Positions 5,996-25,005 of a stretch of DNA of 64,000 bases are shown one piece after another. Below the pieces are notes generated by a model, which saw only the letters and a program-made list of their open reading frames with translations, was not told where the DNA came from and did no database searches. Both the position numbers and the translations under genes were made by a program. Source of the stretch: Escherichia phage HY02; sequence record KM092515. The stretch is one strand, 5' to 3'. Each line of letters opens with the position of its first letter. Position 1 is the stretch's first letter.

Positions 5996-6553
5996 ATGAG
6001 ATACTTGAAGTATGCTTCATGGATTTTCTTAGCTTTGCTAGAACCATTGGCAGCAATCTTAGCAGTTATCTTAGCACCTTTTGTAGTTCCATTTTACAGT
6101 GAGAAGAAAGGACACTTACCTTTTGGATTCAGATGGATGGAGACATATGACAACCTGATTGATGGTGATGAAGGTCACGTTAAAAGATGGGCTAAGATTA
6201 GAAAGATTGGTAAGCTTGGTGTCTATTTGCAGAGAGTTGGATGGCTCTGGAGAAACAAAGCTTATAACTTCTCTTACCATGTGTTAGGAAGAGATGTAAA
6301 AGATGTTACTAAGTGGAAAGGTAATATCAACGTAAGTTCTGACCCTGAAGATAATCAGACAGGTTATCTCCTAATGTGGAACAGTAATGCTTGGGGATTA
6401 TTCGCTTTTATCCCATCAATTAAAGTCTTTGGTAAACAATTCTACTGGAGAATTTATGTTGGATGGAAGCTAAAAAGTGTTGTCCCAGAAGAAAGAGCAT
6501 TCTCAAGGGAAAGAGTTATGTTGGCATTCTTTATTCATCCACTGAGAAAGTAA
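5996..6553 (+). CDS. hypothetical membrane protein embedded in the tRNA array
   Basis: 185-aa ORF with AAAGAGG RBS; strongly hydrophobic N-terminus (ASWIFLALLEPLAAILAVILAPFVVPF) and Trp-rich body; tRNAs on both sides. Confidence 0.6.
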   Translation: MRYLKYASWIFLALLEPLAAILAVILAPFVVPFYSEKKGHLPFGFRWMETYDNLIDGDEGHVKRWAKIRKIGKLGVYLQRVGWLWRNKAYNFSYHVLGRDVKDVTKWKGNINVSSDPEDNQTGYLLMWNSNAWGLFAFIPSIKVFGKQFYWRIYVGWKLKSVVPEERAFSRERVMLAFFIHPLRK

Positions 6554-6561
6554 AGATTTAA

Positions 6562-6637
6562 AGGGGATTAGTTTACAAGGTTAAAACCTCGGTCTTTGAA
6601 ATCGAAGAAGTTGGTTCAATTCCAACATCCCCCGCCA
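6562..6637 (+). tRNA. tRNA-Gln (anticodon TTG)
   Basis: Acceptor AGGGGAT/ATCCCCC (A1-C72 mismatch), anticodon stem TCGGT/ATCGA with loop CTTTGAA, T-arm GTTGG-TTCAATT-CCAAC, encoded CCA. Confidence 0.7.
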
Positions 6638-6639
6638 AT

Positions 6640-6718
6640 GCTCCATTACTCCAATTGGCAGAGAGGCCAGACTTAAAATCTGTGTTATGTATCGGTTCGA
6701 ATCCGATATGGAGTACCA
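6640..6718 (+). tRNA. tRNA with anticodon TAA (Leu-type anticodon, short variable arm; isotype uncertain)
   Basis: Acceptor GCTCCAT/ATGGAGT, anticodon loop CTTAAAA with a 4-bp stem, T-arm ATCGG-TTCGAAT-CCGAT, encoded CCA; 79 nt. Confidence 0.55.
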
Positions 6719-6723
6719 AATTT

Positions 6724-6799
6724 AGCGGTATAGCATAACTGGCAATGCAGCAGTCTCTGAAGCTGTCTTATTAAGGTTCAAATCCTTATGCCGCTGCCA
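6724..6799 (+). tRNA. tRNA-Gln (anticodon CTG)
   Basis: Acceptor AGCGGTA/TGCCGCT, anticodon stem GCAGT/GCTGT with loop CTCTGAA, T-arm TAAGG-TTCAAAT-CCTTA, encoded CCA. Confidence 0.7.
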
Positions 6800-6833
6800 C
6801 TTCTAAGGATTCTTACGAGAGTCCTTAGAAGTG
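6800..6833 (+). repeat. second copy of the GGATTCTTACGAGAGTCC hairpin motif flanked by CTTCTAAGG/CCTTAGAAG
   Basis: Direct comparison with 3696-3730; sits between tRNA-Gln and tRNA-His. Confidence 0.5.
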
Positions 6834-6906
6834 GCCTTATCATAAATGGTAATGACCCATGCTGTGAACATGGTCTATACGGGTTCAAATCCCGTAGGTC
6901 ACCCCA
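6831..6906 (+). tRNA. tRNA-His (anticodon GTG)
   Basis: Acceptor GTGGCCT/AGGTCAC, D-arm TCAT-AAATGGTA-ATGA, anticodon stem CCATG/CATGG with loop CTGTGAA, discriminator C73, encoded CCA. Confidence 0.75.
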
Positions 6907-6911
6907 ATTTA

Positions 6912-6988
6912 TAGTCCAAGTAGCTTATATGGTTAAAGCGCGTGTCTGAAAAACATGAGAAGAGGGTTCAAATCCCACTGGACTACCA
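6912..6988 (+). tRNA. tRNA-Phe (anticodon GAA)
   Basis: Acceptor TAGTCCA/TGGACTA, anticodon stem CGTGT/ACATG with loop CTGAAAA, T-loop GGTTCAAATCC; CCA only partly encoded. Confidence 0.7.
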
Positions 6989-7004
6989 ATTTCAAAGGTG
7001 CTTA

Positions 7005-7739
7005 ATGAAAGAGATGACAGAACAAGGTAAGGAGATTTTTAATCTCTTAAAAACTGGTAAAGGGTTTTCTAACCCCCTTATTACTGGTGCAGCAGTTCTC
7101 GGTGGAACCGTAGCTGCCTCTACATCACTTGTAAGCTCTATTAGCTCTGTATCAGACCCTACAGTAAAGGATAAGCTTGTTGCTGCTGGACTTACAACAG
7201 TTCTGCTTAACAGCTTTACCACGAGTCTGACAAGCACTACATCAACTACCAAAACACTAACAGATTACGGTCAAAAGTCCATTGATGAGTTTTCATCACG
7301 TATGCAGGTAGCAAAAGGTTACTCTAATGTTATGGGTGCAGCAGGTGAACAAGTTGGCTGTACACCATTTAGTGGTATTATGGGTGTTGCTACAGAGTAT
7401 GGTCAAAAAGCTATTGATACGATTAACAGTGCACTAGATAGTGTTAATGGTGTGTTAAGTGACTTACAAGATGCTATTGACAAAGGTCTTGATACTATTT
7501 CTGATTTAGCTGAGCAAGCTGTTAGTAAGATTAATGAAGGTATTTCAAAAATTACAGCTTATGCAGATGAAGTTGTGCAGATGATTGAAGAAGAAGCTGC
7601 TCTTATTGCAGAGTACCTTAAAACGAATATCAATGGGTTCTTAGCAGGTATCTTACCAGACTGGTTTGATGATGCTTGTAAAACTGGTGTGATTGACACT
7701 ATTGCAACACCAGAAATGAAGAACGCATTACAGAAATAA
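7005..7739 (+). CDS. hypothetical protein with Ser/Thr-rich segment (start moved downstream of tRNA-Phe)
   Basis: ORF 6942..7739 overlaps tRNA-Phe; the in-frame ATG at 7005 has an AAAGGTG RBS right after the tRNA 3' end. Confidence 0.55.
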   Translation: MKEMTEQGKEIFNLLKTGKGFSNPLITGAAVLGGTVAASTSLVSSISSVSDPTVKDKLVAAGLTTVLLNSFTTSLTSTTSTTKTLTDYGQKSIDEFSSRMQVAKGYSNVMGAAGEQVGCTPFSGIMGVATEYGQKAIDTINSALDSVNGVLSDLQDAIDKGLDTISDLAEQAVSKINEGISKITAYADEVVQMIEEEAALIAEYLKTNINGFLAGILPDWFDDACKTGVIDTIATPEMKNALQK

Positions 7740-7740
7740 T

Positions 7741-7833
7741 GGAAGATTAACCCTAAAAGGTAAGGGAGCAGTTTGCTAAACTGCCAGTAGCTGAGAAATC
7801 GGTGTACCAGTTCAAGTCTGGTATCTTCCTCCA
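7741..7833 (+). tRNA. tRNA-Ser (anticodon GCT), type II
   Basis: 93 nt; perfect acceptor GGAAGAT/ATCTTCC, anticodon stem GCAGT/ACTGC with loop TTGCTAA, long variable arm, T-arm ACCAG-TTCAAGT-CTGGT, encoded CCA. Confidence 0.8.
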
Positions 7834-7837
7834 ATTT

Positions 7838-7913
7838 GAATCCGTGACAGAAATGGCTATGTGCCTGTCTGCAAAACAGGTTTATAAGGGTTCGAGTCCC
7901 TTCGGATTCTCCA
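7838..7913 (+). tRNA. tRNA-Cys (anticodon GCA)
   Basis: Perfect acceptor GAATCCG/CGGATTC, anticodon stem CCTGT/ACAGG with loop CTGCAAA, T-loop GGTTCGAGTCC, encoded CCA. Confidence 0.8.
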
Positions 7914-17086: not shown

Positions 17087-18439
17087 ATGTGGAATCCAAT
17101 TGTTAATGTAGATATTACATTGAACACCGCAGGAACTACAAGAGAAGGTTTTGGTTTGCCACTATTCTTAGCTTCAACAGATAACTTTGAAGAAAGAGTA
17201 CGTGGTTACACTTCCTTAACTGAAGTTGCTGAAGATTTCGATGAAAACTCTGCTGCATATAAGGCTGCTAAACAACTTTGGAGTCAGACTCCTAAAGTAA
17301 CTCAGCTTTATATTGGTAGACGTGCTATGCAGTACACTGTATCAATTCCTGATGCCGTCACCGAAAGTACAGACTACTCAATTACTGTAGCTGCTGGCGG
17401 TGGAATCTCTCAACCATACCAGTACACAGCACAAGGTTCAGACACTGCTCAGACAGTGTTGCAACAGTTTAAAACACAGATTGAAGCTGACCCAACAATC
17501 AAAGATAAGGTTTCTGTGAACGTAACTGGTAGCAATGGTTCTGCCACAATGATTATTACCAAAGCTGGTGATAATGACTTTGTGAAAGTAACAACTACAG
17601 CACAGACTGTGTATATTGCAAGTACAACTGCCGATACAGCATCAACTGCTCTGGCAGCCATTGAAGCTTATTCTACTGACTGGTATTTCATTGCAGTAGA
17701 AGACAGAACTCAACAGTTTGTCTTAGCAATGGCTTCTGAGATTCAGGCTCGTAAGAAAATCTTCTTTACAGCCAACTCCGATGTAACAGCACTACAAGGT
17801 ACAGAGTTAGCCAGTGCAAATGATGTTCCAGCACAGCTTGCTAAGAGTATGTATACTCGCACAGTTTGCTTGTGGCATCACACAGCGGCAGAAGATTATC
17901 CAGAGATGGCATATATTGCTTATGGTGCTCCATACGATGCAGGGTCAATTGCTTGGGGTAATGCTCAGTTGACTGGTGTAGCTGCTTCTTTACAGCCAGC
18001 TAATAAGAGACCTCTGACAAGTATTCAGAAGTCAGCTTTAGATGTACGTCACTGTAACTTTATCGACCTTGATGGTGGTGTTCCAGTGGTTCGTCGAGGG
18101 ATTACTTCTGGTGGGGAATGGATTGATATCGTCCGTGGTGTTGACTGGTTAGAATCAGACCTGAAAACTTCTCTGAGAGACTTGCTAATTAACCAGAAGG
18201 GTGGTAAGATTACTTATGATGATACTGGTATTACCCGTATTCGTCAAGTCATTGAAACCTCTCTGCAAAGAGCAGTCAACAGAAACTTCCTGTCATCTTA
18301 CACAGTTAATGTTCCTAAAGCCTCTCAAGTTGCTTTGGCAGACAAGAAAGCTCGTATCCTGAAAGATGTTACCTTCGCAGGTATCTTAGCAGGGGCTATC
18401 TTGGATGTTGACTTGAAAGGTACAGTGGCTTACGAATAA
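17087..18439 (+). CDS. putative tail sheath protein
   Basis: 450-aa structural protein followed by a tube-sized ORF, a chaperone pair and the tape measure gene; downstream baseplate V/W/J-like genes imply a contractile tail. Confidence 0.5.
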   Translation: MWNPIVNVDITLNTAGTTREGFGLPLFLASTDNFEERVRGYTSLTEVAEDFDENSAAYKAAKQLWSQTPKVTQLYIGRRAMQYTVSIPDAVTESTDYSITVAAGGGISQPYQYTAQGSDTAQTVLQQFKTQIEADPTIKDKVSVNVTGSNGSATMIITKAGDNDFVKVTTTAQTVYIASTTADTASTALAAIEAYSTDWYFIAVEDRTQQFVLAMASEIQARKKIFFTANSDVTALQGTELASANDVPAQLAKSMYTRTVCLWHHTAAEDYPEMAYIAYGAPYDAGSIAWGNAQLTGVAASLQPANKRPLTSIQKSALDVRHCNFIDLDGGVPVVRRGITSGGEWIDIVRGVDWLESDLKTSLRDLLINQKGGKITYDDTGITRIRQVIETSLQRAVNRNFLSSYTVNVPKASQVALADKKARILKDVTFAGILAGAILDVDLKGTVAYE

Positions 18440-18454
18440 TAGAGGTAAATTGGA

Positions 18455-18901
18455 ATGGCTATGTATCAGCAATATTCCCCTAAAGACGTTGTATGTAGCT
18501 GGAATGGTATTGCCATTGAAGGCTTTGCCCCAGACTCATTTTTACGTCTACAGAGAACATCACCACTTGTGACACCAGTTGTTGGGGCAGGTGGTCAAGT
18601 TGCTCTGACAAGAAATGCAGATAAGACAGGTACTATTGAGATTGAGCTTATGCAGACTTCTCTCTCTAACCAGATGCTTTCTGCAATTCAAGCTAAACAA
18701 GACAATATGGAACTTGAAGAAGATATCTCTTCTAACTTCGTAATCTACGACCCATCAGGCTCTGTTCTGGCAACTGGTATTAATGCTTGGTTGCAGGAAT
18801 TACCACAGATTGAACTTGGTCGTGACCAGAACTCTAAAACTTGGATTTTTGGTTGTGAGAAGCTAGACTACACTTCAACAATTCCAGCGTCAAGTGTTTA
18901 A
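18455..18901 (+). CDS. putative tail tube protein
   Basis: 148 aa, directly after the sheath candidate, followed by a strong terminator. Confidence 0.5.
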   Translation: MAMYQQYSPKDVVCSWNGIAIEGFAPDSFLRLQRTSPLVTPVVGAGGQVALTRNADKTGTIEIELMQTSLSNQMLSAIQAKQDNMELEEDISSNFVIYDPSGSVLATGINAWLQELPQIELGRDQNSKTWIFGCEKLDYTSTIPASSV

Positions 18902-18913
18902 TAAATCCTATAA

Positions 18914-18945
18914 GGGGGAGACTTTAAAAGGTCTTCCCCTTTTTT
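18914..18945 (+). terminator. rho-independent terminator
   Basis: GGGGGAGAC...GTCTTCCCC hairpin followed by TTTTTT. Confidence 0.7.
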
Positions 18946-18974
18946 GTTTCTTTTAAAAGTATTAAGGAATCACA

Positions 18975-19373
18975 ATGAAAACAGAATCTAGAGTAATTAA
19001 TGGTAAGAAAGTAAATATCGTTCTGCTTGGGGCAAGAGATGGTATTAAGATGTCTATGAAGTTGGGTAAAATTGTTGTTCCAACCTTTGCGCAGATGCTA
19101 TCAAGTTTGACTGATAAAGATAAGAAAGAAGCTCCAATGGTCCCATTTAAAGAACTTGTTGAAGCTTGTTTTGACAGAATTGAAGAAATTAACCTTGAAG
19201 AAATGGCTACCCTGTTATTTCAAGGGGCAACTGTTGATGACTTCCCACTTAATATTGACACACACTTCCAAGCAAACTACGGTGAGTTTATTGATTACTT
19301 AGCATTTGCGCTGGAGGCAAACTTCGGAAGTTTTTTCGAAGCAAGCATTTTCAAAAGCCTAACTTCTCAGTAA
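18975..19373 (+). CDS. tail assembly chaperone (gpG-like upstream frame)
   Basis: 132 aa directly upstream of the tape measure gene; slippery TTTTTTC heptamer at 19331-19337 near the 3' end. Confidence 0.6.
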   Translation: MKTESRVINGKKVNIVLLGARDGIKMSMKLGKIVVPTFAQMLSSLTDKDKKEAPMVPFKELVEACFDRIEEINLEEMATLLFQGATVDDFPLNIDTHFQANYGEFIDYLAFALEANFGSFFEASIFKSLTSQ

Positions 19374-19375
19374 AC

Positions 19376-19614
19376 ATGGGTAACACTCTACAGACACCAC
19401 TAACTGATGCTGCTGTAGAGGCAACCTATGAAGAAGCAGACGAGATGAAATTTGTGCTTGCTATTTATGGTATGGAAGGGTGTAAAGAAACACTTGACCA
19501 ACTCTTTGCTATGACATTCTCTGATTTATTATCATTGAGACAATTTCTTGAAATTCAGAGGTCGTATAAAGAGGAAATTGCTTACAACGAACTTAGAAGA
19601 GCAGGAAAAATGTA

Positions 19615-19615
<1 letters not shown>
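19376..19615 (+). CDS. tail assembly chaperone extension (gpGT-like -1 frame; probably made mainly as a frameshift fusion)
   Basis: In the -1 frame relative to 18975..19373; no RBS before its ATG; the frame stays open from the slippery site into this ORF. Confidence 0.5.

Positions 19616-25005
<5,390 letters not shown>

What the first reader, a model, noticed from the sequence alone, without database searches (positions are those of the whole stretch)
18975..19615. Programmed -1 frameshift site (TTTTTTC) joining the two tail-assembly chaperone ORFs
The slippery heptamer T TTT TTC at 19331-19337 lies in the zero frame near the end of ORF 18975..19373. A -1 slip enters the frame of ORF 19376..19615 with no intervening stop, and that ORF has no RBS of its own. 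This matches the conserved gpG/gpGT frameshift found upstream of tape measure genes in tailed phages.
Basis: partly seen in the sequence, partly recalled or inferred. Interest (0 to 1): 0.55.

Follow-up and report, generated by a model that had tools for sequence, protein, structure and literature searches.

The report
Known phage tail-chaperone frameshift site
This is the usual programmed -1 ribosomal frameshift that joins the two tail-assembly chaperone reading frames upstream of the tape measure gene in a Felix O1-like phage; it is real and strongly conserved, but it is already annotated in close relatives and so is ordinary.

Summary
ORF1 (18975-19373) and ORF2 (19376-19615) exist. T_TTT_TTC lies at 19331-19337 in ORF1's zero-frame phasing. 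The -1 frame is open from 19295 to 19615, and ORF2 has no Shine-Dalgarno sequence.

The window is a Felixounavirus (about 97% identical to Felix O1, KhF1 and UAB_Phi87). The genes run sheath, tube, chaperone (Pfam Phage_TAC_15), T segment, tape measure.

All 53 loci examined carry the same in-phase heptamer, including relatives with only 28% protein identity. In each, the -1 extension runs 79-106 codons. In the annotated Ounavirinae it ends at or just before the tape measure start. Many relatives have no start codon for the T segment. Nucleotide conservation across the subfamily peaks on the heptamer (0.93 against about 0.6).

The same fusion junction (...GSFF|RSKH...) is already deposited for Salmonella phage Meda and the Citrobacter phages Moogle, Mordin and Michonne. 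It is also mentioned in genome announcements.

No conserved downstream structure was found. A GGAGG 13 nt upstream may act as a stimulator. I found no experimental proof of the fusion.

The parts
18975..19373 (+). ORF1, the short tail assembly chaperone ('G'-type product, 132 aa), made by standard decoding
   Evidence: ORF list. Pfam PF21822 Phage_TAC_15, E=4e-20. phrog_1613 tail assembly chaperone, E=1e-48. The protein is identical to Escherichia phage HY02 YP_009204968.1 'tail assembly chaperone'.
19331..19337 (+). Slippery heptamer T_TTT_TTC in ORF1's zero-frame phasing, the -1 shift site
   Evidence: Conserved in phase in 53 of 53 loci. The preceding Ser codon switches between AGT and TCT but keeps its final T. 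The peak of nucleotide conservation falls here.
19337..19615 (+). -1 frame segment ('T' part, 92 codons starting at CGA 19337-19339). It is translated only as the C-terminal extension of ORF1, and its stop overlaps the tape measure ATG at 19615.
   Evidence: phrog_4963 tail assembly chaperone, E=3e-55. Conserved as protein at 24-90% identity across genera. Many relatives have no usable start codon.
19338..19373 (+). Dual-coding overlap: the C-terminal tail of the short product (EASIFKSLTSQ) and the linker of the fusion (RSKHFQKPNFSV)
   Evidence: Of the 24 nt after the heptamer, 23 are identical between Felix-like phages and the Erwinia Kolesnikvirus phages, although the genes overall are only about 66% identical.
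19313..19317 (+). Internal Shine-Dalgarno-like GGAGG, 13 nt 5' of the heptamer. It is a candidate 5' stimulator (inferred, not shown).
   Evidence: GGAGG occurs only 7 times in 44.6 kb of ORF sequence in the window. GGAGG or AGGAG lies 11-13 nt upstream in 12 of 19 distinct relative contexts. The stimulatory range for -1 shifts is 9-14 nt according to PMC5009743.
19376..19615 (+). ORF2 as called by gene finders (79 aa from ATG 19376). This is probably an annotation artefact of the T segment rather than an independently initiated gene.
   Evidence: No SD sequence. The ATG is not conserved in Kolesnikvirus, LPML1, Arno18 or the IMG/VR relatives. In this phage the ATG is buried in a predicted hairpin at 19375-19430.
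19615..21849 (+). Tape measure protein gene (744 aa), the presumed client of the chaperones
   Evidence: Pfam TMP_3, E=6e-17. phrog_4036, E=0. Annotations in relatives.
17087..18901 (+). Tail sheath gene (17087-18439) and tail tube gene (18455-18901) immediately upstream. These give the myovirus context.
   Evidence: phrog_205 tail sheath, E=3e-123, and phrog_280. Pfam DUF3383 and KPP10_Orf10. RefSeq annotation 'tail sheath'.

Best explanation
The locus is the tail-assembly-chaperone recoding cassette of a Felix O1-like myophage.

Most ribosomes translate ORF1 (18975-19373) to its TAA stop and make a 132-aa chaperone. A minority slip back one nucleotide when the two tRNA-Phe occupy UUU (P site) and UUC (A site) of U_UUU_UUC at 19331-19337, and re-pair with UUU UUU. 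They then read CGA at 19337-19339 and continue in the -1 frame to 19615. The result is a 213-aa fusion (...GSFF-RSKHFQ...).

By analogy with lambda G/GT and P2 E/E+E', the shared N-terminal domain would coat the tape measure protein encoded immediately downstream, and the rarer T extension would recruit the tube protein. The shift frequency would then fix the ratio of the two products.

What is shown here:
- the site, its phase and the open frame;
- the chaperone family assignment;
- the gene order;
- deep conservation of the heptamer;
- coding conservation of the T segment;
- the lack of an independent start in many relatives.

What is inferred:
- that slippage actually occurs, and how often;
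- the division of labour between the G and T domains;
- any stimulatory role of the upstream GGAGG.
For: - Site and frames.
- Identity of the window: Felixounavirus, about 97% identical to KhF1, UAB_Phi87 and Felix O1.
- Families: ORF1 matches Pfam Phage_TAC_15 (E=4e-20). ORF2 matches phrog_4963, 'tail assembly chaperone'. The next gene is the tape measure and the upstream genes are sheath and tube.
- Conservation of the site: the in-phase TTTTTTC is present in 53 of 53 loci across Felixounavirus, Mooglevirus, Suspvirus, Kolesnikvirus, unclassified Ounavirinae and IMG/VR contigs down to 28% protein identity. The -1 extension is always 79-106 codons, and in the annotated Ounavirinae it ends at or just before the tape measure start.
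- Synonymous evidence: the Ser codon changes family (AGT to TCT) while keeping the final T. By this genome's codon usage, S-F-F would be spelled T_TTT_TTC only about 13% of the time.
- The T segment is conserved as protein, but its ATG is not. The first possible start lies at codon 56 in the Erwinia phages, 62 in L041 and 81 in L052, and the annotators of those phages call no gene in that gap.
- Nucleotide conservation across the subfamily peaks at 19323-19355 (0.92-0.93, against a background of about 0.55-0.65). In Erwinia phages MM7, PM_6 and S_24, BLAST finds only window 19320-19360, at 92.7% identity.
- Independent annotation of the same junction: Meda AXY86324.1, 'Tape measure chaperone frameshift product'; Michonne/Mordin YP_009177317.1; Moogle YP_009145710.1. 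My predicted fusions match these sequences exactly. Text statements appear in PMC4319497 and PMC5543628.
- Slipperiness: UUN A-site codons, all-pyrimidine ZZN codons and homogeneous X/Z motifs are the more shift-prone classes in E. coli (PMC4066793). P2 uses TTTTTTG for the equivalent shift (PMC3091744).
Against: - I found no protein-level or reporter evidence for any Ounavirinae member.
- There is no stimulatory hairpin or pseudoknot at the canonical 5-9 nt downstream. The 63 nt after the heptamer fold no better than shuffles (z=+1.15), and no consensus structure exists across genera.
- In this phage the stop (TAA), two bases (AC) and then ATG 19376 could allow termination-reinitiation, so some free ORF2 product cannot be excluded.
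- One of the two peptide patterns used to fish IMG/VR relatives (NF[GS]SFFE) contains the Phe-Phe motif. This biases that sample toward keeping the peptide, though not the codon choice.
Confidence: 0.88

Rival explanations
1. Two separate proteins only. ORF2 is translated independently from ATG 19376 by termination-reinitiation coupling to ORF1 (TAA, then AC, then ATG), and the heptamer is simply how Ser-Phe-Phe happens to be encoded.
For: The stop and start are 2 nt apart in the window and in Felix O1. Most GenBank records annotate two separate CDSs.
Against: - There is no SD sequence before the ATG.
- The ATG is absent or displaced in Kolesnikvirus, LPML1, Arno18 and most IMG/VR relatives, yet the T segment stays conserved and open in the -1 frame.
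- The codon spelling of the heptamer is invariant in 53 of 53 loci despite a switch of Ser codon family.
- The ATG is buried in a predicted hairpin in this phage.
Confidence: 0.05
2. Transcriptional slippage. RNA polymerase adds one extra U on the T6 run, and standard translation of the edited mRNA then gives the same fusion protein.
For: - An extra U in the run yields the identical ...SFFR... product, so the protein sequence cannot tell the two mechanisms apart (reasoning).
- The consensus scan flags a weak hairpin at 19311-19327 followed by the T-run as terminator-like, which could pause the polymerase.
Against: - Bacterial transcriptional slippage is described for runs of about 9 A or T (PMC5009743). 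Six T is short.
- The conserved feature is the phase-specific X_XXY_YYZ pattern, with the C retained at position 7, and not the run length. No relative has a longer run.
- The terminator-like match is within chance expectation (2 found against 1.2 +/- 1.0 in shuffles).
Confidence: 0.04
3. Frameshifting occurs, but at a different position within the 19295-19373 overlap, for example by single-tRNA P-site slippage elsewhere or a +2 event.
For: The -1 frame is open for 79 nt (19295-19373), so other positions would also give an in-frame fusion.
Against: - T_TTT_TTC is the only X_XXY_YYZ motif in that interval.
- It is the only stretch that is invariant in every relative.
- In SUSP2 the -1 frame carries a stop 6 codons upstream of the heptamer (..GICSGG*FRKFF), which narrows the usable interval.
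Confidence: 0.03

Closest known systems
Tape measure chaperone frameshift as annotated in Ounavirinae relatives: Salmonella phage Meda (AXY86324.1) and Citrobacter phages Moogle, Mordin, Michonne and Mijalis
   Same: It is the same gene pair, the same TTTTTTC heptamer and the same junction. Fusions I predicted from the Meda and Mordin DNA match the deposited proteins exactly. The DNA is 97.6% (Meda) and 81% (Mordin) identical over this stretch. The frameshift is mentioned in PMC4319497 and PMC5543628.
   Different: Nothing of substance. This window's ORF1 differs by a few residues, so its exact fusion sequence is not in the protein collection. Most other records, including the Felix O1 RefSeq entry, still list two separate CDSs.
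Bacteriophage P2 E / E+E' tail chaperone frameshift (Christie et al. 2002; Xu, Hendrix and Duda 2004)
   Same: - Both are contractile-tailed phages.
- The gene pair lies between the tube and tape measure genes.
- A -1 shift on a T6-based heptamer (TTTTTTG in P2) lies near the end of the short ORF.
- No downstream secondary structure is needed or found (PMC3091744).
   Different: - The last base of the heptamer is C, not G, so the A-site codon is Phe UUC rather than Leu UUG.
- The proteins are longer (132/213 aa against 91/142 aa).
- No other chaperone Pfam family scored at E<=0.1; only Phage_TAC_15 did.
- The P2 shift is experimentally demonstrated and this one is not.
Bacteriophage lambda gpG / gpGT
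   Same: The logic is the same: a short abundant chaperone and a rare frameshift-extended fusion encoded just upstream of the tape measure gene, with neither product in the virion (PMC5009743).
   Different: - Lambda is a siphovirus.
- Its slippery site is G_GGA_AAG (from my own knowledge).
- There is no sequence-family relationship.
E. coli dnaX -1 frameshift (mechanistic comparison only)
   Same: An internal Shine-Dalgarno-like element lies within the 9-14 nt range 5' of a homopolymeric heptamer. Here it is GGAGG, 13 nt upstream.
   Different: - dnaX also has a strong 3' stem-loop and shifts at about 50%. Here no 3' structure is found.
- The 5' element is missing in 7 of 19 distinct relative contexts.

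Membership tests
Conserved tail-assembly-chaperone programmed frameshift of tailed phages (Xu, Hendrix and Duda 2004 class) | The gene pair lies between the major tail or tube gene and the tape measure gene, on the same strand. | tested here: met
   Order is sheath 17087-18439, tube 18455-18901, ORF1 18975-19373, ORF2 19376-19615, tape measure 19615-21849.
Conserved tail-assembly-chaperone programmed frameshift of tailed phages (Xu, Hendrix and Duda 2004 class) | The second ORF overlaps the end of the first in an alternative frame and lacks its own translation initiation signals. | tested here: met
   The -1 frame is open from 19295. There is no SD sequence before ATG 19376. Many relatives have no start codon at all.
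Conserved tail-assembly-chaperone programmed frameshift of tailed phages (Xu, Hendrix and Duda 2004 class) | A canonical slippery sequence lies in the correct phase within the overlap. | tested here: met
   T_TTT_TTC at 19331-19337 is in zero-frame phase and is the only X_XXY_YYZ motif in the overlap.
Conserved tail-assembly-chaperone programmed frameshift of tailed phages (Xu, Hendrix and Duda 2004 class) | The slippery site and the two-frame arrangement are conserved in divergent relatives. | tested here: met
   Present in 53 of 53 loci, down to 28% protein identity. Nucleotide conservation peaks at the site.
Conserved tail-assembly-chaperone programmed frameshift of tailed phages (Xu, Hendrix and Duda 2004 class) | Both the short product and the frameshift fusion are made in vivo at a fixed ratio and are needed for tail assembly. 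| not testable with these tools
   I found no experimental report for Ounavirinae in the searchable library.
Pfam PF21822 Phage_TAC_15 (tail assembly chaperone) | The whole-protein score exceeds the curated gathering threshold. | tested here: met
   73.0 bits against a cut-off of 22, E=4e-20, covering profile positions 1-124 of 127.
Other tail-chaperone sequence families, such as those of lambda gpG and P2 gpE | Detectable sequence homology to those chaperone families. | tested here: not met
   No Pfam family other than Phage_TAC_15 scored at E<=0.1 for ORF1, ORF2 or the fusion. No PDB chain matched at E<0.8. The resemblance is therefore functional and architectural and does not amount to sequence-family membership. 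Fold-level comparison was not run.
dnaX-type frameshift cassette (5' SD + heptamer + 3' stem-loop) | An SD-like element lies 9-14 nt 5' of the heptamer. | tested here: met
   GGAGG at 19313-19317, 13 nt upstream. The range is taken from PMC5009743. The element is conserved in only 12 of 19 distinct contexts.
dnaX-type frameshift cassette (5' SD + heptamer + 3' stem-loop) | A stable 3' stem-loop lies a few nt downstream of the heptamer. | tested here: not met
   The 63 nt downstream fold at -3.4 kcal/mol, z=+1.15. The alignment fold gives zero conserved pairs. No Rfam frameshift element was found.

The most novel reading that the evidence does not exclude
The internal GGAGG at 19313-19317 may be a genuine dnaX-like 5' stimulator of this frameshift. 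It lies 13 nt upstream of the heptamer and is spelled with the minority codons CTG-GAG. It recurs as GGAGG or AGGAG in relatives that encode different amino acids there (LEA against KE). The shift efficiency might be tuned further by the phage's own tRNA-Phe(GAA) and tRNA-Arg(ACG), because CGA is the first -1 codon and is rare in this genome. That would make this a tail-chaperone frameshift with a defined stimulator, in a class usually described as lacking one.
Probability: 0.25. Interest if true: 0.3.

Novelty: already known. Interest (0 to 1): 0.1.

Why it matters
The practical value is for annotation. The window's phage should carry a joined CDS, join(18975..19337,19337..19615), named as the tail assembly chaperone frameshift product. 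Most Felix O1-like records, including the Felix O1 RefSeq entry, still list ORF2 as a separate gene or 'hypothetical protein' (one record calls it a 'head closure protein'), or leave the region unannotated.

Biologically it is one more clear example of the conserved G/GT-type recoding strategy in a myovirus subfamily. It does not open a new question.

Tried and rejected
- Downstream stimulatory structure. I folded 63, 103 and 141 nt around and after the site in the window, and about 82 nt in five relatives. Nothing lies at the canonical spacing. The only notable hairpin (19375-19430, z=-2.1) starts 37 nt downstream and is not conserved, so I rejected it as a stimulator.\n- Rfam scan of 18800-19800 at E<=1. 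It returned only a sub-threshold GibS match over the terminator (27 bits against a gathering score of 115), which I take as chance.\n- PDB sequence search with the fusion: no meaningful hit.\n- The terminator-like hit at 19311-19327 plus the T-run is within chance expectation. I kept it only as weak support for the transcriptional-slippage rival.\n- Exact look-up of this window's fusion protein: absent, because ORF1 of this phage is a rare variant identical only to phage HY02. The Meda and Mordin fusions were found.\n- Literature searches for experimental confirmation in Felix O1-like phages found only annotation-level statements.\n- The in-phase heptamer AAAGGGG at 22631, also followed by a long -1 ORF, is just the ribosome binding site and ATGA overlap of the next gene.\n- I did not run structure prediction or the large protein-database searches, because the verdict did not depend on them.

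Full report
**Observation.**
- ORF1 runs 18975-19373 (132 aa). ORF2 runs 19376-19615 (79 aa) and lies in the -1 frame relative to ORF1.
- TTTTTTC occupies 19331-19337 and is phased AGT TTT TTC, i.e. T_TTT_TTC in ORF1's zero frame, 12 codons before the TAA stop.
- The -1 frame is open from 19295 to 19615. A slip at the heptamer therefore gives a 213-aa fusion (...ANFGSFF|RSKHFQKPNFSVNMGNT...) whose stop overlaps the ATG of the next gene at 19615.
- The 20 nt before ATG 19376 contain no Shine-Dalgarno-like purine tract. ORF1 and the downstream gene each have AAGGA or AGGA at normal spacing.

**Chance.** ORFs of at least 100 aa in the window contain 64 in-phase X_XXY_YYZ heptamers in 17,963 codons.
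- About 0.09 would be expected in the 26-codon interval where a -1 slip could join the ORFs.
- This is the only in-phase T_TTT_TTC.
- Only one other heptamer has a long -1 extension. That one, at 22631, is simply the ribosome binding site of an overlapping gene.
- Phe-Phe dicodons elsewhere avoid TTT in first position (3 of 16 against 58% expected from codon usage, p = 0.0016). This fits selection against accidental slippage, so the one retained slippery pair stands out.

**What the locus is.** The window is a Felix O1-like myophage (Felixounavirus, Ounavirinae), 96-98% identical over this region to KhF1, UAB_Phi87, Felix O1 and many others.
- The ORF1 protein is identical to the 'tail assembly chaperone' of Escherichia phage HY02.
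- The gene order is tail sheath (17087-18439, phrog_205), tail tube (18455-18901, phrog_280), a strong intrinsic terminator (18912-18941), ORF1, ORF2 and the tape measure protein (19615-21849; Pfam TMP_3, phrog_4036).
- ORF1 matches Pfam PF21822 Phage_TAC_15 at 73 bits against a cut-off of 22. ORF2 matches phrog_4963, 'tail assembly chaperone'.

**Comparative evidence.**
- I collected 52 related loci from GenBank phages and IMG/VR contigs. They cover Felixounavirus, Mooglevirus, Suspvirus, Kolesnikvirus, unclassified Ounavirinae and uncultivated relatives down to 28% protein identity.
- All 53 sequences, window included, carry TTTTTTC in the same zero-frame phase near the end of the chaperone ORF, followed by a -1 extension of 79-106 codons. 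In the annotated Ounavirinae this extension ends at or just before the tape measure start.
- The Ser codon before Phe-Phe switches between AGT and TCT but always ends in T. By this genome's codon usage, S-F-F would be spelled T_TTT_TTC only about 13% of the time.
- One of the two peptide patterns used to find IMG/VR relatives contains SFFE. This biases that sample toward the peptide, though not toward the codon spelling.
- The T segment is conserved as protein (24-90% identity, with invariant C49, K50, L56, M59, F61 and others). The ATG that gene finders use in Felix O1-like genomes is not conserved.
- In the Erwinia phages the first possible start in that frame is at codon 56, in L041 at codon 62 and in L052 at codon 81, none with an SD sequence. 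The annotators of MM7, phiEa21-4 and LPML1 call no gene in the roughly 240-nt gap. In those phages the T segment can only be expressed by recoding.
- A 21-nt sliding-window nucleotide identity across seven representatives of the subfamily peaks at 0.92-0.93 over 19323-19349, against a background of about 0.55-0.65.
- For three Erwinia phages, BLAST recovers only window 19320-19360, at 92.7% identity. The heptamer plus the dual-coding stretch that follows it is the most constrained DNA in the gene pair.

**Prior knowledge.** The frameshift is already annotated.
- Salmonella phage Meda (Felixounavirus, 97.6% identical here) carries a joined CDS noted as 'Tape measure chaperone frameshift product'. 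Citrobacter phage Mordin has the equivalent joined CDS.
Both sequences are present, residue for residue, in the protein collection: AXY86324.1 (Meda), and YP_009177317.1/ALA06885.1 (Michonne/Mordin). Moogle's fusion, YP_009145710.1, lies in the same cluster.
- The Moogle and Mijalis genome announcements state that the tape measure chaperone has a translational frameshift, citing Xu, Hendrix and Duda 2004.
- Most other records, including the Felix O1 RefSeq entry, still list two separate CDSs.
- I found no experimental demonstration for this subfamily.

**Mechanism.** The best-supported mechanism is tandem -1 slippage of two tRNA-Phe(GAA) from UUU-UUC to UUU-UUU.
- The motif satisfies all three empirical rules for high shiftiness in E. 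coli: a UUN A-site codon, an all-pyrimidine ZZN codon, and homogeneous X and Z (PMC4066793).
- P2 uses the near-identical TTTTTTG for its E/E+E' chaperone shift, without a downstream structure (PMC3091744).
- No 3' stimulator is evident here. The 63 nt after the site fold no better than shuffles (z=+1.15), no consensus structure exists across genera, and no Rfam element matches.
- A hairpin at 19375-19430 (z=-2.1) lies too far downstream to act on a ribosome at the heptamer. It does bury ATG 19376 in this phage.
- A candidate 5' stimulator does exist. GGAGG at 19313-19317 lies 13 nt upstream, within the 9-14 nt range reported for SD-stimulated -1 shifts (PMC5009743).
- GGAGG is rare in the window's ORFs (7 in 44.6 kb) and is spelled here with the minority codons CTG-GAG. 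GGAGG or AGGAG at 11-13 nt recurs in 12 of 19 distinct relative contexts, including ones where the encoded residues differ (LEA against KE).
- The element is absent from the Erwinia phages, LPML1 and three IMG/VR lineages. It is therefore at most an accessory, lineage-specific element, and its role is inferred only.

**Rivals.**
- Independent initiation of ORF2 by termination-reinitiation is possible in this phage because of the stop-AC-ATG spacing. It cannot explain the relatives that lack a start codon, nor the invariant codon spelling (0.05).
- Transcriptional slippage on T6 would give the same protein. But six T is short compared with the runs of about 9 described for bacteria, and what is conserved is the phase-specific heptamer, not the run length (0.04).
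- A shift elsewhere in the overlap lacks any motif or conservation (0.03).

**Comparison and verdict.**
- In function and architecture this belongs to the conserved tail-chaperone frameshift class. It is closest to P2 E/E+E', since both phages are contractile-tailed and both use a T6-based heptamer.
- By sequence it belongs to Pfam Phage_TAC_15. No other chaperone Pfam family scored at E<=0.1.
The feature is real, conserved and mechanistically ordinary, and other annotators have already recognised it in close relatives. Interest is therefore low.
- The residual open point is whether the upstream GGAGG, and possibly the phage's own tRNA-Phe and tRNA-Arg(ACG), tune the shift efficiency.

Noticed in passing
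window 18912-18941: A strong intrinsic terminator (13-bp stem, 6 GC pairs, then TTTTTGTTT) lies between the tail tube gene and the chaperone gene. It is annotated as a terminator in phages Meda and Mordin. It would lower transcription of the chaperone and tape measure genes relative to the sheath and tube genes.
   Followed up: partly
window 3089-7913: A cluster of 25 phage tRNA genes. It includes tRNA-Phe(GAA) at 6913-6988, which decodes both slippery codons. It also includes tRNA-Arg(ACG) at 5901-5976, which would read CGA, the first -1 frame codon; CGA makes up only 6% of Arg codons here. tRNA-Glu(UUC) at 3173-3250 reads the next zero-frame codon. Whether these affect shift efficiency is unknown.
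   Followed up: no
window 19375-19430: A predicted hairpin (outer stem CAUGGGU/ACCUAUG, inner perfect 8-bp CUCUACAG/CUGUAGAG; the 103-nt fold gives -24.5 kcal/mol, z=-2.1) sequesters the ORF2 ATG at 19376. Mooglevirus and Suspvirus have a different CCCC/GGGG hairpin at about the same place. No consensus structure exists across the subfamily.
   Followed up: partly
window 19313-19317: An internal GGAGG lies 13 nt upstream of the slippery heptamer. GGAGG occurs only 7 times in 44.6 kb of ORF sequence. GGAGG or AGGAG is present at 11-13 nt in 12 of 19 distinct relative contexts, and its presence tracks a Gly-Ser rather than Ser-Ser dipeptide just before Phe-Phe.
   Followed up: partly
window-wide (ORFs of at least 100 aa, + strand): Phe-Phe dicodons avoid the slippery TTT-first spelling: 3 of 16, although TTT makes up 58% of Phe codons (binomial p = 0.0016). 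This suggests genome-wide selection against accidental -1 slippage.
   Followed up: partly
window 22631-22646: An in-phase AAAGGGG lies 3 codons before the stop of ORF 21849-22646, with a 116-codon -1 extension. This is just the ribosome binding site and ATGA overlap of the next gene (22646-22987) and is not a recoding site.
   Followed up: yes
public records matched by window 18900-19700: Annotation oddities in relatives:
- ORF2 is called 'head closure protein' in Salmonella phage SUT_S820.
- VpaE1_ev108 labels this stretch with head closure, neck and tail completion names.
- Felix O1-like genomes are filed as 'Campylobacter phage A132' and 'Listeria phage LPML1', and a matching protein is filed under Staphylococcus hyicus. 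These are probably host mislabels or contamination.
   Followed up: no
L003 1569-1806; L008 1269-1506; L005 1666-1908: Erwinia phages vB_EamM-M7 and phiEa21-4 and phage LPML1 have an unannotated gap of about 240 nt between the chaperone and tape measure genes. The gap is the T segment, which is reachable only by the -1 shift. These records lack the fusion CDS.
   Followed up: yes
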